Assembly (NCBI RefSeq): GCF_030028105.1
Contig: NC_092370.1
Coordinates: 83,224,969 to 83,288,968, forward strand
Direction of reading: 5' to 3'
DNA: 64,000 nucleotides
From: Mobula birostris
Taxonomy: Eukaryota
Part shown: in pieces, positions 39,170 through 46,887 of the stretch
How positions within the stretch are numbered: position 1 is the stretch's first letter
Layout: each line of letters opens with the position of its first letter
Position numbers and translations under genes: made by a program
The notes under the pieces: generated by a model
What the model was told of the DNA's origin: nothing
The model's input: only the letters and a program-made list of their open reading frames with translations
The model's database searches: none

Positions 39170-39679
39170 ATGGCTCAAGCTACCCTCTTCCTGCTCCTGG
39201 CCGCCGCTCTCAGCCTGGCCGGGGCGGCGAGCGGACAGCGGAGCGGAGACGGCCAGCCATCCGCCCACCCTCTGTTGTACTTCGAGGCGCGGGACGTGCG
39301 GAGCCTACGGCAGAAGGCGCGGGGCAGCCACTCCTCCATCAGCCGCGCTGTCCGGGCAGCCGTGAAGACCATGCTGGCCAAGCCCGGCCTCTACCTGCCT
39401 CCGCCAGACCACGCCAGCTTCTCAGCCAAGTGGAACGAGGTATACGGCAACAACCTGGGAGTCCTCTCCCTCTACTGCCTGCTCTTCCCCGAGGACGCCG
39501 CCGCGCTAGAATTTGCTCTGACCTACCTGGACCGAATGGCCTCTTACCCCAGCTGGCAGGTGCGGGCGGCCCCAAACGATGAGGTGCCGGTGGCCCACTC
39601 CCTGAGCGGGTTTGCAACTGCTCTGGACTTCCTCTACTCCGTCCTGGACGAAGACAGGAGACAGAACTACATGCAGAAG
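39170..39679 (+). CDS. DSEL: Dermatan-sulfate epimerase-like protein, coding exon 1 (170 codons; signal peptide plus N-terminal epimerase domain)
   Basis: Kozak GACATGG; signal peptide MAQATLFLLLAAALSLAGAASG; HPLLYF, LPPPDHASFSAKWNEVYGNNL and DEVPVAHSLSGFATALDFLY match DSEL/DSE. Donor AAG|GTAAGT, phase 0. The symbol denotes the family; orthology is unresolved. Confidence 0.9.
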
Positions 39680-41452
39680 GTAAGTCACACTTGGGATTCT
39701 GTCTGGACAATATGGGGCTGAGTGCCCCGTCTGCATCCAAGACGGAGGTTCATGAGGCCGAGGGAGGGTAGACTGTCAGAATCACCCCCAGGGCGGAAGT
39801 ATCAAATACCAGAGGGCAAGAGGTCATGCCTTTAAGGTGAGGAGGAGGGAGGAGATTAAATCAGAATCAGATTTCTTATCACTAGGTGAAGTGCGGTGAT
39901 GTTGGTAGTAGTACAGTGCAGAGGCGCTAAACTTACTATAAATGCTAAAGATAAATGACAAGTGAAAAAAAGGAATAGCTAAATACTGTTCAGAGGGTGA
40001 TGGGCCATTCACAAATCTGATGGTGGAGGGGAAGAAGCTGTTTCTGAATTGTTAAGGGTGGGTTTTTAAACTCTGTTGGCAGTATTAAATAGAGGGCATG
40101 TCCTGGATAGAGAGTCACACAGCACGGAAACTAGCATTTGACCTAACTGGTCCATGCTGATCAAAATGCCTGCTTAAGCCAGTCCTATATGCTCATGTTT
40201 GGCTCATATCCATATAGACTTTTATTATCCAAGTACTGTACCTGGCCAAGTATTGATTAAATGTTAATGCATCTGCCACAACCATTTCCCCTGGCAGCTT
40301 CTTCCATATACAGATCACCTCCAGGTAAAAATGCTGCCCCTCACCTTCCTTCACCTTAAACTTAGGGCCCTCTGATGTGCTGGGCAAGATGGTATTGTTT
40401 ACTATTGTCACAGATAGAGTGGAAAAACTTTTGATTTGCATGTCACCTAGGATGAATCATTCTAGACATAAGAAATCAGAATGTCCTGATGTAGGATGTT
40501 GGCTGAAACATCGACTGTTTATTCATTTCCATAGATGCTGCCGGAACTGCGAACTTCCTCCAGTATTTTGTGTGTGTTGCTCTGGATTTCCAGCATCTGC
40601 AGAATCGTGCAGAAAATAGGTTGGGGTTACAGAGAAAGTGCAATACAGTGAAGATAGACAAATAAAAAGCAAGAGCCATGACTAGTTAAACGAGGAGATC
40701 AATAGCTTGTCTTGTATCATGTAAGGAGTCAGTTTATAACAGAGGATAAAAGCTGTTGTTAGGTTTGGTGATATATATTTTTGGGCTTTTGCATCTTTTA
40801 CCCAATAGCAGGGAGAAGAGAGAACGACCGGGATGGGAGTGTTCTTTGATTATGGTGGCTGCTTTCTTGAGGTGGGGGAACTGTAAACAGAATCAGTGGA
40901 GGGGAGATTGGTTTGCATGAGGCCTGACAGAGCTTTTATTAAAAAATGAGAGACAGCAATAAGGTAGACAATCAGAATCTTGTTCCCCAGTTTAGGAACA
41001 TCAAACACCACAGGACAGGCATTTAAGGTGAGAGGAGGAAAGATTAAAGTGGTACCACGGGTAGCCGGGCTGGTGAAGAAGGTGTTTGACACAATAACTT
41101 TCATCAACACATCAATAGGAAAGGCTTAGCGGGAGATGGGTCAAACGTGGGCCAGTGGGAGTAGCGTAGGCTGGCATGGACATGTTGGGCCAACATTCCA
41201 CTTTCCATGCTGTGTGACTCTGCGAGATGTGCAGGGCAGGTTTTCTGTGCATGGGTGCCTGGGATGCACAGCCGGGGCTGGTGATGGAAGAAGATATGAG
41301 AGTGTCATCTGGAAGTCTCTTAGATAGGTACATGAATATAAAGGGAATAGAGAGATATGGATCATGTGCCCAGGCAGATGGCTTTAGTTTAATTTAGCAC
41401 TAACTTTACTGCAGACATCATTGACTGAAGGAAATGTCCCTGTTCTATGTTT

Positions 41453-44400
41453 AGCAACACACACACAATGCTGGAGGAACTCAGCTGGCCAGGCAGCACC
41501 TATGGAAATGAATAAACAGTCGATGTTTCGGGCCGAGATGCTTCATCAGGACTGGAAAGAATAAGAAGCTGGCGGGAGGGGGAGGAAGACAAGCTGAAAG
41601 GTGATCAGGGGTGGAGAAGGGGGCATGAAGTCGGAAGCTGGGAGGTGACAAGTGGAAAAGGCAAAGGGCTGGAGGAGAAAGGATCTGACAGGAGAGGATA
41701 GTGGTTCATGGAAGAAAGAGAAGGGGAAGGGCATCAGAAAGAGGTGATAGACAGGTGAGGAGAAGATGTAAGAGGCCAGAGTGGGGAAATGAAGAAGGGG
41801 GAGGGGAAGAAATCAATGTTCCTGCCATCAGATTGGAGGCAACCCAGACAGTGAATGAGATGTTGCTTCTTCAACCTGGGTGAGGCTTCATCATTGCTGA
41901 AGGAGGAGGCCATGGACCGATATGTCGGATTAGGAATAGGGATAGGAATTGAAGTGGTTGTCCACCGAGAAATTCTGCTTTTTGTGGATGGAGTGAAGGT
42001 GCTCATCAAAGCAGTCCCCAGTCTACGTCAGGTCTTACCAATATAAAGGAGGCCCTATCAGGAGAACTGGATACAGTAGACAACCCCCAACAGATTCACA
42101 TGTAAAGTGTTGCCTCACCTGAGAGGACTGTTTGACCTATATGGAGGTGAGCGAGGAGGTGAATGGGCACGTATAGCACATCTGCTGCTTATAGGGAGAT
42201 TGGTGGGGAGGGATGAATGGACAAGGAAATCATGGAGAGAGTAATCTGGGCAGAAGGTAAAGATGTGTCTGGTGGTAGGGTCCCATTGCACATGGTGGAA
42301 ATTGTGGAGAATGCTGTGTTGGATGTGGAGGTTCATGGGATGGTAGATGAAGACAAGAGGAACTCTAACCCTCTTAAGGTGGAGGAAGATGTGGTGAGTG
42401 CGGATGTTTGGAAAACGGAGGAGGTGCTGGGGAAGGCAGCATCAATGGGGCTGTCCACTGTACTTGGCACTCCCAGTGCAGTCTCCTCTACATTGGTGCA
42501 ACCTGATGTAGATTGGCAGGCTGCTTTGTGGAGCACCTCAGCTCCATCTGCAAAATGTGGTATTTCCTGATGGAGAACCATTTCAATTCATATCCCCATT
42601 TCCCTTCCAACATGTCAGTTTCCTTCTGCCACAATGAGGCCACTCTCAGGAGCAACACCTCATATTCCATCTAGATGGTCTCCAACATGATGGCATTAAT
42701 ATTTATGTATTCAACTTCTGGTAACTTTTTTTTCCCTTCCTCTACCTGCTCCTTCATTTTCCCCACTCTGACTTCTTTCCTCTTCTCCTCACCTGTGTAT
42801 CACCTCCCCCTGGTGCCCCTCCTCCTTCCTTTATTCCCATGACCCCCTCTCATTTCCTAACAGATCAGTTCTTTTCCAGCCCTTTGCCTTTTCAATTTAT
42901 CACCTCCCAGCTTCTTACTCCAACAAAAGTAAGAAAAGAGAGGAGTTCCTGATGAAAGAACGTAGGGAGTTAAGTAGAAAGCTGAAAAGCACGACCTCCA
43001 GGGTAATAGTCTCTGGATTGCTTCCATGTGCCAGTGAGGGCAAGGATAGGATTTGGCGGATGAATGCATGGCTGAAGGATTGGTGCAGAAGGCAGGTCTT
43101 CAGATCATTGAGATCTCTTCTGGAGAAGGTGTGATCTTTACGAAAAGGGCAGGAACCTAAGGGGACCAATACCCTTGTGGGTATGTTTGCTAGAGTTAAT
43201 GGGGAGGGTTTAAACTAATTTGGCAGGGAGATGGGAAATGGAGCAATAGAGCTGAGGAAAGGGCAATTGTTATACAAGTAGATGCAATGAGTAGTGAGAC
43301 TGTGAGGACTGAACACTGGACTGAAGCTGTTATTTGAAAGCATGCAGTATATGGAATAAGGCAGATGATTTTGAAGCGCAACTAGAGATTGGCAGGTATA
43401 ATGTTGCAAGCATCACTGAGTCATGGTTGAAAAATCAAAGTTTGGAGCTTAACATCCAAGGATACATCTTGTATGGAAAAGACAGGCAGGTTGTCAGATT
43501 GGGGTGGGGTGACTCTGTTGGTAAAAAATGAAATCAAGTCCTTAGAAAGAGATGACATAAGATCGGAAGACGTAGAATCTTTGTGGGTAGAGTTAAGAAA
43601 CTGCAAGGATAAAGAGACCCTGTTGGGAGTTGTATACCGGCCTCCAAGTTGTAGCCAGGATATGGGATACAAATTACAACAGAAGTTAAGAGAACCCTGT
43701 CAAAAGGGCAATGTTGCAATAGTCATGGGGATTTCAATATGCAGGTAGATTGGGAGAATTAGGTTGGTGCTGGATACCAAGAGAGGGAATTTATAGAATG
43801 CCTAGAGTAGCTTGAGGTTGAGCCCACTAGGGGAAAGGCAGCTTAAGGTAAAAGAACCGTTAGGAGGCAGTGATCATTATGTGATATAATTAACCCTGCA
43901 GTTCGAGAGGGAGAAGATAAAGTCAGGAGTATCAATACTTCATGTGGAGTCAAGGGAATTACAGAGGCACAAGAGAAGAGTTGGACGAAGTTGACTGGAA
44001 GGGACACTAACAGGGGTGATGGCAGAACAACAATGGTTGCAGTTTCTGGGAGCAATTCAGAAAGCATAGGAAAGATTCATTCCAAAGATGTATTCCAATA
44101 ATGTTTTCTAAAGGGAGATTAGGCAATCGTGGCTGACAAGAGAAGTCAAAGAGAGCATAAAAGTAAAGGAGGGGCATATAATAGAATAAAAATTAGTGGG
44201 GTGTTAGAGGATTGGGAAGCTTTTCAAAACCAACAGAAAGCAACTAAAAACCATAAGGAGAGAAAAGAAATATGGAGGTAAGTGGGCCAATAATATAAAA
44301 GAGGACATCAATAGTTTTTTTCAATTATGTAAAGAGTAGAAGAGAGCTGAGAATCAATATTGGACCGGATAGGACATTGGATAGGACATTGACATTGGAT

Positions 44401-46413: not shown

Positions 46414-46438
46414 CCTGTTCCATGTTTGTTTTTTTAAG

Positions 46439-46887
46439 GTCAACAACGTCACTATGGAGCTCTATGAGTTCTCCAAGTACCGGGCATGGGGCAAGCACTT
46501 CCTCCACAACCATCAGGCCACCAATGTTCTAGCCCTGCTGACCGGAGCCTTGGTGCTCACCCCCCACCAGATGCAGGCAGCCTTGCTCTGCAAGCAGTTC
46601 GCTATTGACATCATGGAGAAGACTCTCTTCCTCCTGAGCCACGTGGTAGATGGGTCGCTGGACGAAGGGGTGGCTTACGGCAGCTACACTTCCAAGTCCA
46701 TCACACAGTACATCTTCTTGGCCCTGCGGCACTTCAACCTGAACCACACTGGCAACCCCTGGCTGAAGCAACACTTCTGGTTTTACTATGCCACGTTGCT
46801 GCCCGGCTTCCAGCGGAGTGTTGGCATCGCCGACTCTAACTACAACTGGTTCTATGGGCCAGAGAGCCAGCTTGTTTTCCTGGACAG
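46439..46887 (+). CDS. DSEL: Dermatan-sulfate epimerase-like protein, coding exon 2 (catalytic His/Tyr region)
   Basis: Acceptor TTTGTTTTTTTAAG|GTC is in frame with exon 1 (..[15 protein letters not shown]). Motifs [36 protein letters not shown] and [21 protein letters not shown]. Probable donor CAG|GTTTGT, phase 2 (alternatives at 46892 and 46901). Confidence 0.9.

What the first reader, a model, noticed from the sequence alone, without database searches (positions are those of the whole stretch)
39170..46887. Intron-containing DSEL-type epimerase: candidate third DSE/DSEL paralogue
Seen: two stop-free, GC3-rich exons join in frame through a 6759-bp phase-0 intron, and a second intron of more than 17 kb follows. 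Recalled knowledge, to be verified: human DSEL has an intronless CDS, while DSE introns fall near PSW, NQG, LPG and EFLW. This gene runs uninterrupted through the PSW, NQG-equivalent and LPG positions and is instead split at QK|V and LDR|F. Diagnostic blocks are DSEL-like ([45 protein letters not shown]). Other residues are DSE-like (GNNLG rather than GNNLP, PSW, PWLKQHF, and an N-x-T sequon at the DSE 'NAS' position). The N-terminal stem is short. Inference: either a distinct paralogue lost in mammals or a DSEL orthologue that gained introns; both bear on dermatan-sulfate synthesis in cartilaginous fishes.
Basis: partly seen in the sequence, partly recalled or inferred. Interest (0 to 1): 0.72.

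Follow-up and report, generated by a model that had tools for sequence, protein, structure and literature searches.

The report
Ray's only DSEL gene, two introns
This is the ray's ordinary single copy of DSEL, a gene whose product likely helps build dermatan sulfate, not a third family member; its one oddity is two introns in a coding region that is unbroken in humans and frogs, likely gained in the shark-and-ray lineage.

Summary
The anatomy is confirmed: two GC3-rich exons (39170-39679, 46439-46887) join in frame through a 6,759-bp phase-0 intron, and contigs from 3 of 4 laid sequencing runs carry that junction. A third exon lies 29.5 kb downstream, outside the window. The spliced 1,179-aa product is identical to a RefSeq-annotated ray DSEL, keeps all eight published catalytic, substrate and Mn-binding residues, and ends in the DSEL-type sulfotransferase-like domain. 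The 'third paralogue' idea fails: my searches found only this gene and a five-exon DSE in the genome. The gene sits in the vertebrate DSEL clade (100/100; grouping with DSE rejected, p-AU 8e-6), next to CDH19- and CDH7-type cadherins as human DSEL does. The 'DSE-like' residues are ancestral or convergent. What remains is intron history. Neither intron is shared with DSE, human or frog DSEL, or the invertebrate genomic loci I could read. Intron 2 appears shared with a shark and skates; intron 1 may be restricted to some rays. Gain is the more parsimonious reading, but lamprey, chimaera and amphioxus exon maps were unavailable, and two unnamed invertebrate fragments end at the same sites. Ordinary gene, modest gene-structure curiosity.

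The parts
39008..39169 (+). 5' UTR contiguous with coding exon 1 (minimum extent); lies in a CpG-rich, GC-rich stretch of about 38000-39600
   Evidence: Spliced contigs X1 rec 1 and X17 rec 8 begin at 39008 and 39014 with no upstream piece joined; CpG obs/exp 0.5-0.8 against 0.05-0.2 inside intron 1
39170..39679 (+). DSEL coding exon 1 (aa 1-170): hydrophobic signal-peptide-like N-terminus and start of the epimerase alpha-toroid, including W88 (human DS-epi1 W98)
39680..46438 (+). Intron 1, 6,759 bp, phase 0 (K170|V171), GT-AG, filled with repeats; possibly restricted to some rays
46439..46887 (+). DSEL coding exon 2 (aa 171-320): catalytic H195 and Y250 (human DS-epi1 H205, Y261)
46888..64000 (+). 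First 17.1 kb of intron 2 (29,538 bp in all, phase 2 in R320). Exon 3 (aa 320-1179: rest of the epimerase, two hydrophobic segments, sulfotransferase-like domain) is outside the window at G000:C1:83301394-83303974

Best explanation
This is the only DSEL (DS-epi2) gene found in this ray genome, with three coding exons, and its two coding-region introns were likely gained in the cartilaginous-fish lineage rather than marking a new paralogue. Shown: exon structure, splicing of intron 1, full-length product, tree position, cadherin neighbours, conserved active-site residues. Inferred from human DS-epi1/2: a Golgi membrane enzyme whose Mn-dependent epimerase domain (H195, Y250, Y470; Mn ligands H449, E467, N478) converts glucuronic to iduronic acid in chondroitin chains; the C-terminal sulfotransferase-like domain has no demonstrated activity in any species I read about. 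Inferred on intron history: intron 2 arose before sharks and rays split; intron 1 possibly later, within rays. Splicing removes both, so the protein is an ordinary DSEL.
For: Spliced CDS identical to P0001, labelled 'dermatan-sulfate epimerase-like protein'. Three protein searches of G000 hit only this locus and the multi-exon DSE on C3. Identity over the epimerase domain is 63.6-68.9% to bony-vertebrate DSELs and 50.7% to the genome's DSE. IQ-TREE: vertebrate DSEL clade 100/100, chondrichthyan DSEL 100/98 with chimaera sister to sharks plus batoids; holding these with DSE is rejected, p-AU 8.2e-6. Cadherin tails 0.77 Mb (+) and 1.2 Mb (-) downstream group with CDH19 (bootstrap 72) and CDH7 (99); human order CDH19-DSEL-TMX3 from PMC2868029 passages. 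Pfam Sulfotransfer_3 over its cut-off. Human and Xenopus DSEL ORFs lie on one exon (PMC5784981 passages). DSE, the sister paralogue, lacks both introns. Invertebrate genomic loci L035 (intronless) and L038/L039 (introns near aa 114-116, 218 and 541) run through both sites. Whale-shark gene models split exactly at site 2: P0138 ends ...FLD, P0137 starts with 11 non-homologous residues then RYVL; skate-like contig proteins P0003/P0123 end at ...FLDR.
Against: The full-length genome search used a stricter first look, and an assembly gap could hide a copy. The gnathostome-only DSEL branch has weak support (79/59), so orthology to bony DSEL leans on synteny, and the CDH19 call is only 72%. No exon maps for lamprey, hagfish, chimaera, amphioxus, gar or coelacanth DSEL could be obtained. 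Two unnamed, long-branch invertebrate fragments stop at the same sites: P0261 loses homology right after QK|V, and P0282 ends at FLDK; these could be ancestral introns, parallel gains or contig ends. Junction 2 was not read directly: contigs X1 and X17 run 42 and 302 letters beyond exon 2, but those letters were not seen. Enzyme activity is untested.
Confidence: 0.72

Rival explanations
1. Same gene, but the introns are ancestral to vertebrate or chordate DSEL, retained in cartilaginous fishes and lost in bony vertebrates (for example by recombination with a cDNA).
For: Chimaera has the fewest intron changes of the jawed vertebrates compared (PMC3964593 passages), so retention is a good prior. 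Unnamed invertebrate fragments P0261 and P0282 end at the two sites. The site-2 context LDRYV is shared with lamprey DSEL-A and amphioxus.
Against: Needs separate losses in DSE, in bony DSEL and in the invertebrate loci read. Several full-length invertebrate homologues are single ORFs on ENA contigs, including one of 20.9 kb and one of 456 kb (starting at aa 235, so it covers site 2 only). The bony-vertebrate gene did not move to a new locus, as a retrocopy would.
Confidence: 0.22
2. A third DSE/DSEL paralogue, or an ohnologue that replaced DSEL in cartilaginous fishes and was lost in bony vertebrates.
For: The DSEL base is a polytomy of chondrichthyan, bony and two lamprey lineages; lampreys carry two DSEL-type and two DSE-type genes, so extra paralogues have existed.
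Against: No second DSEL in G000. None of the named rows below 83% identity among the 120 of 482 hits listed is chondrichthyan. The neighbours group with CDH7 and CDH19 themselves, not with their paralogues. The subtree broadly follows the species tree.
Confidence: 0.04
3. The introns are an assembly artefact or the gene is an unspliced, broken copy.
For: The intron 2 donor is weak (GTTTGT); the RNA status of the runs is only guessed.
Against: Canonical GT-AG ends, exact in-frame join to a full protein, joined contigs in three studies, the same site-2 break in other species.
Confidence: 0.02

Closest known systems
Vertebrate DSEL / DS-epi2 (human 18q22.1, Xenopus Dsel, zebrafish dsela/dselb)
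   Same: Domain order (epimerase, hydrophobic segments, sulfotransferase-like domain), 64-69% identity in the epimerase domain, tree position, CDH19/CDH7-type neighbours
   Different: CDS split into three exons, against one in human and frog; short N-terminal stem; the 5' UTR appears contiguous with the ATG, whereas human and frog have a separate non-coding first exon; GNNLG instead of GNNLP
RefSeq-annotated chondrichthyan 'dermatan-sulfate epimerase-like protein' (P0001 identical; 22 species labels across)
   Same: Same protein and orthologue group; already predicted in databases
   Different: Exon maps of the other species were not visible; site 2 looks shared, site 1 may not be
DSE / DS-epi1 (PDB 6HZN; this genome's copy on C3)
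   Same: Epimerase fold and all eight published functional residues
   Different: About 51% identity, no sulfotransferase domain, four different introns (codons 135, 220, 300, 369); grouping rejected

Membership tests
DSEL (DS-epi2) orthologues | Falls in the vertebrate DSEL clade, apart from DSE | tested here: met
   100/100 clade; AU test rejects grouping with DSE
DSEL (DS-epi2) orthologues | C-terminal sulfotransferase-like domain after hydrophobic segments | tested here: met
   PF13469 27.7 bits (cut-off 27), PF00685 E 7e-4; hydrophobic windows at about 752-773 and 787-807
DSEL (DS-epi2) orthologues | Next to CDH19 and CDH7 | tested here: met
   C1:84.07 Mb (+) groups with CDH19 (72; RefSeq calls it 'cadherin-7-like'), C1:84.49 Mb (-) with CDH7 (99)
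DSEL (DS-epi2) orthologues | TMX3 on the other side | tested here: inconclusive
   No thioredoxin-family exon near 83 Mb; a CGHC exon at C1:131.2 Mb, 2.2 Mb from RTTN, looks like TMX3 by recall only; tools named it only as PDI/thioredoxin family
DSEL (DS-epi2) orthologues | Single-exon ORF (described for human and Xenopus; a trait, not a definition of orthology) | tested here: not met
   Three coding exons against one
DS epimerases (EC 5.1.3.19) | Catalytic H205/Y261/Y473, H450, W98 and Mn ligands H452/E470/N481 | tested here: met
   8 of 8 conserved: H195, Y250, Y470, H447, W88, H449, E467, N478 (numbering offset of 22 to the 6HZN chain inferred from the alignment)
DS epimerases (EC 5.1.3.19) | Measured GlcA-to-IdoA epimerase activity | not testable with these tools
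   Needs expression and assay
DSE (DS-epi1) orthologues | Four conserved CDS introns and DSE-type C-terminus | tested here: not met
   None of the four introns shared; a separate DSE exists on C3
Third vertebrate DSE/DSEL paralogue | Coexists with a separate DSEL and a DSE in one genome | tested here: not met
   Only two epimerase loci found

The most novel reading that the evidence does not exclude
DSEL gained two spliceosomal introns in stages in cartilaginous fishes, the vertebrate group reported to have the lowest intron turnover: one before sharks and rays split, and a second within rays after the split from Leucoraja-type skates, at a Lys-Val AAG|GT site that sharks (Lys-Ile) lack. This would be a datable intron gain in an otherwise single-exon ORF.
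Probability: 0.35. Interest if true: 0.42.

Novelty: new variant of a known kind. Interest (0 to 1): 0.24.

Why it matters
It removes a false lead: my searches give rays the standard two-epimerase set (DSE plus DSEL), so no new branch of dermatan-sulfate synthesis is implied. If the introns are gains, they are rare examples in a lineage reported as the most static for intron change, useful as phylogenetic markers and for studying how introns arise. Practically, 'DSEL is intronless' cannot be used to assign orthology, and fragmented shark assemblies split this gene into two models.

Tried and rejected
1) Direct repeats at the intron ends (AAG|GT twice; CAG|GTT twice) as a sign of recent insertion: rejected as evidence, because 2 of the 4 old DSE introns show the same AG|GT...AG|GT pattern, one with a longer repeat. 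2) Transposon origin of the intron ends: the first 181 nt of intron 1 and 233 nt of intron 2 are essentially single-copy in the search (the search skips very common words). 3) Tandem-duplication remnants: no tblastn hit and no significant blastn hit of the CDS in either intron. 4) Search for exon-1-only fragments in other species gave 2 unrelated bony-vertebrate pieces among 1,374 candidates. 5) Fragments P0230 and P0253 end at aa 170 but read as frameshifts, not introns (my reading). 6) The metagenome scan gave 5 loci from 124 stretches: one intronless invertebrate-type gene, one fish-type DSE piece and three copies of one invertebrate gene; no shark or lamprey DSEL. 7) TMX3 could not be named with tools. 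8) Pfam found nothing useful in exons 1 and 2 alone; the Atlas did not name the cadherin. 9) No RNA holder was listed on record. 10) Earlier scan notes: nothing found. 11) Literature: eight searches; 'dsel' with 'intronless' gave 0 papers; none of the listed papers describes chondrichthyan DSEL gene structure; the one held supplement of PMC3964593 has no hit for DSEL (other supplementary notes may not be held). No structure prediction was run, since sequence homology to 6HZN is unambiguous.
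Full report
Observation. Exon 1 (ATG 39170 to 39679) and exon 2 (46439-46887) are stop-free with GC3 of 0.82 and 0.81, separated by a 6,759-bp GT-AG intron in phase 0 between K170 and V171; a phase-2 donor follows inside codon 320. Both exons match human DS-epi1 (PDB 6HZN). A search of the own genome with the full-length relative P0001 placed the rest of the gene in one 2,581-nt exon at G000:C1:83301394-83303974, after a 29,538-bp intron. 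The three exons translate to 1,179 aa, identical to P0001, which the database labels 'dermatan-sulfate epimerase-like protein [Mobula birostris]'. No further coding pieces lie in the introns.

Splicing. Of 4 runs laid on window 38700-48200, three (X1, X8, X17; three organism labels, three studies) list a contig that joins exon 1 to exon 2; X3 lists none. The joint is reported three bases early because AAG fits both sides. RNA status of these runs is guessed or unrecorded, but no intronless genomic copy was found that could explain the joined form. The X1 and X17 contigs continue 42 and 302 letters past exon 2; that these are exon 3 is inferred, not seen. Both start near 39010 with nothing joined upstream, so the 5' UTR looks contiguous with the ATG.

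Is it a third paralogue? No. Three protein searches of G000 returned only this locus and a five-exon gene on C3 (the last used a stricter first look). Among the 120 of 482 homologues listed, the eleven at 83-100% identity are chondrichthyan or unnamed skate-like; none of the named remainder is chondrichthyan. In a 29-row IQ-TREE analysis of 685 epimerase columns the gene lies in a chondrichthyan clade (100/98) inside vertebrate DSEL (100/100); grouping with DSE is rejected (p-AU 8.2e-6), while chondrichthyan plus bony DSEL is the best tree but weakly supported (79/59) (the 64-row FastTree agrees). Synteny fills that gap: type II cadherin tails at C1:84.07 Mb (+) and 84.49 Mb (-) group with CDH19 (72) and CDH7 (99), and human CDH19, DSEL and TMX3 are neighbours (PMC2868029 passages; CDH7 beside CDH19 and the strands are recalled). 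In Albula a CDH7-group gene and DSEL have locus tags G00173460 and G00173480. TMX3 was not found near the gene.

The 'DSE-like' residues. GNNLG is in all 17 chondrichthyan DSELs aligned and lamprey DSEL-A; GNNLP marks all 14 bony-vertebrate rows. PSW and N173 occur only in the four myliobatoid rays, and the genome's DSE reads ISDAS there. PWLKQHF is the common shark state. The short stem is shared with other batoids, lamprey and a crinoid. These are ancestral states or convergences, not a mosaic.

How it works. Inferred from human DS-epi1 (PMC8006597 passages): a Golgi membrane enzyme using H205, Y261 and Y473 with a Mn site (H452, E470, N481) to epimerise glucuronic to iduronic acid. All eight published functional residues are conserved, and exon 3 adds hydrophobic segments and the sulfotransferase-like domain that distinguishes DSEL; activity of that domain is described as unproven (PMC5784981 passages). 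Activity was not tested here.

Intron history. Human and Xenopus DSEL ORFs are on one exon. Site 2 appears shared across elasmobranchs: whale-shark gene models end at ...FLD (P0138) and start with a non-homologous stretch before RYVL (P0137), and skate-like contig proteins end at ...FLDR (P0003, P0123) or start just inside exon 3 (P0126, P0127). Site 1 may be narrower. P0003 and P0123 run through it on 1,400-bp contigs; if those are DNA, that skate lacks intron 1, but an RNA contig ending at the splice branch would look the same. Sharks, chimaera, lamprey DSEL-A and Leucoraja have Lys-Ile there; the other seven batoids aligned have Lys-Val. Outgroups that I could read lack both introns: DSE, L035 (intronless) and L038/L039 (introns elsewhere). 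Gain is therefore more parsimonious. Against it: chimaera has the fewest intron changes among the jawed vertebrates compared (PMC3964593 passages; PMC12357937 passages), two unnamed invertebrate fragments end at the two sites (P0261, P0282), and lamprey, chimaera and amphioxus exon maps were unavailable. The AG|GT repeats at the intron ends are not evidence of recent insertion, since 2 of 4 DSE introns have them too.

Known and novel. The protein is already annotated in RefSeq. Eight literature searches listed no paper on chondrichthyan DSEL structure; the library omits most subscription journals, and I read passages only of PMC5784981, PMC4368567, PMC3964593 (plus one supplement search), PMC12357937, PMC8006597, PMC13731937 and PMC2868029. 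Invertebrate chordates are reported to have DSEL-type enzymes only. Verdict: ordinary DSEL orthologue (about 0.95) with an undescribed gene-structure variant, probably by intron gain (about 0.72 jointly); interest 0.24.

Noticed in passing
P0140, P0152 (DSEL-type) and P0175, P0179 (DSE-type): Lampreys carry two DSEL-type and two DSE-type epimerases. The second DSEL (P0152/P0298) has DGRAVTG in place of HNHQATN, so it lacks the catalytic His205 equivalent and may be inactive as an epimerase.
   Followed up: partly
G000:C1:131.23 Mb (L057) and 133.47 Mb (L034): A CGHC thioredoxin exon resembling TMX3 (recalled) and RTTN lie 48-50 Mb from DSEL, suggesting an inversion with a breakpoint 5' of DSEL that split the human 18q22-type block.
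   Followed up: partly
G000:C1:84.07 Mb (L024): The gene RefSeq calls 'cadherin-7-like' in sharks and rays groups with CDH19 (bootstrap 72), so it is probably the chondrichthyan CDH19.
   Followed up: partly
G000:C3:239.14-239.22 Mb: Intact 952-aa DSE with four CDS introns. In the tree vertebrate DSE and DSEL are sisters to the exclusion of amphioxus (96/92), so DSE probably lost the sulfotransferase domain, and its introns may also be gains.
   Followed up: partly
window 39008-39169: Spliced contigs start here with no upstream exon, and the upstream + strand is purine-rich with no acceptor-like tract; the 5' UTR intron described for human and frog DSEL may be absent in this ray.
   Followed up: partly
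P0001 aa 424-431 (exon 3): An 8-residue insertion relative to human DS-epi1, absent also from the sawfish, skate, chimaera, lamprey and mammal DSELs viewed, lies shortly before the His447/His449 loop.
   Followed up: no
window 3566-5422 (-): 618-codon open frame with a weak reverse-transcriptase match (RVT_1, E 8e-6), probably a recent retroelement copy.
   Followed up: partly
window 23164-23511 (+), 49093-49521 (+), 61458-62114 (+): Fragments of an LTR-retrotransposon integrase, a LINE reverse transcriptase and an ALKBH8_N/DUF1891-type LINE piece.
   Followed up: partly
P0261, P0282: Unnamed invertebrate-type fragments end exactly at the two intron sites of this gene; ancestral introns, parallel gains or contig ends are all open.
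   Followed up: partly
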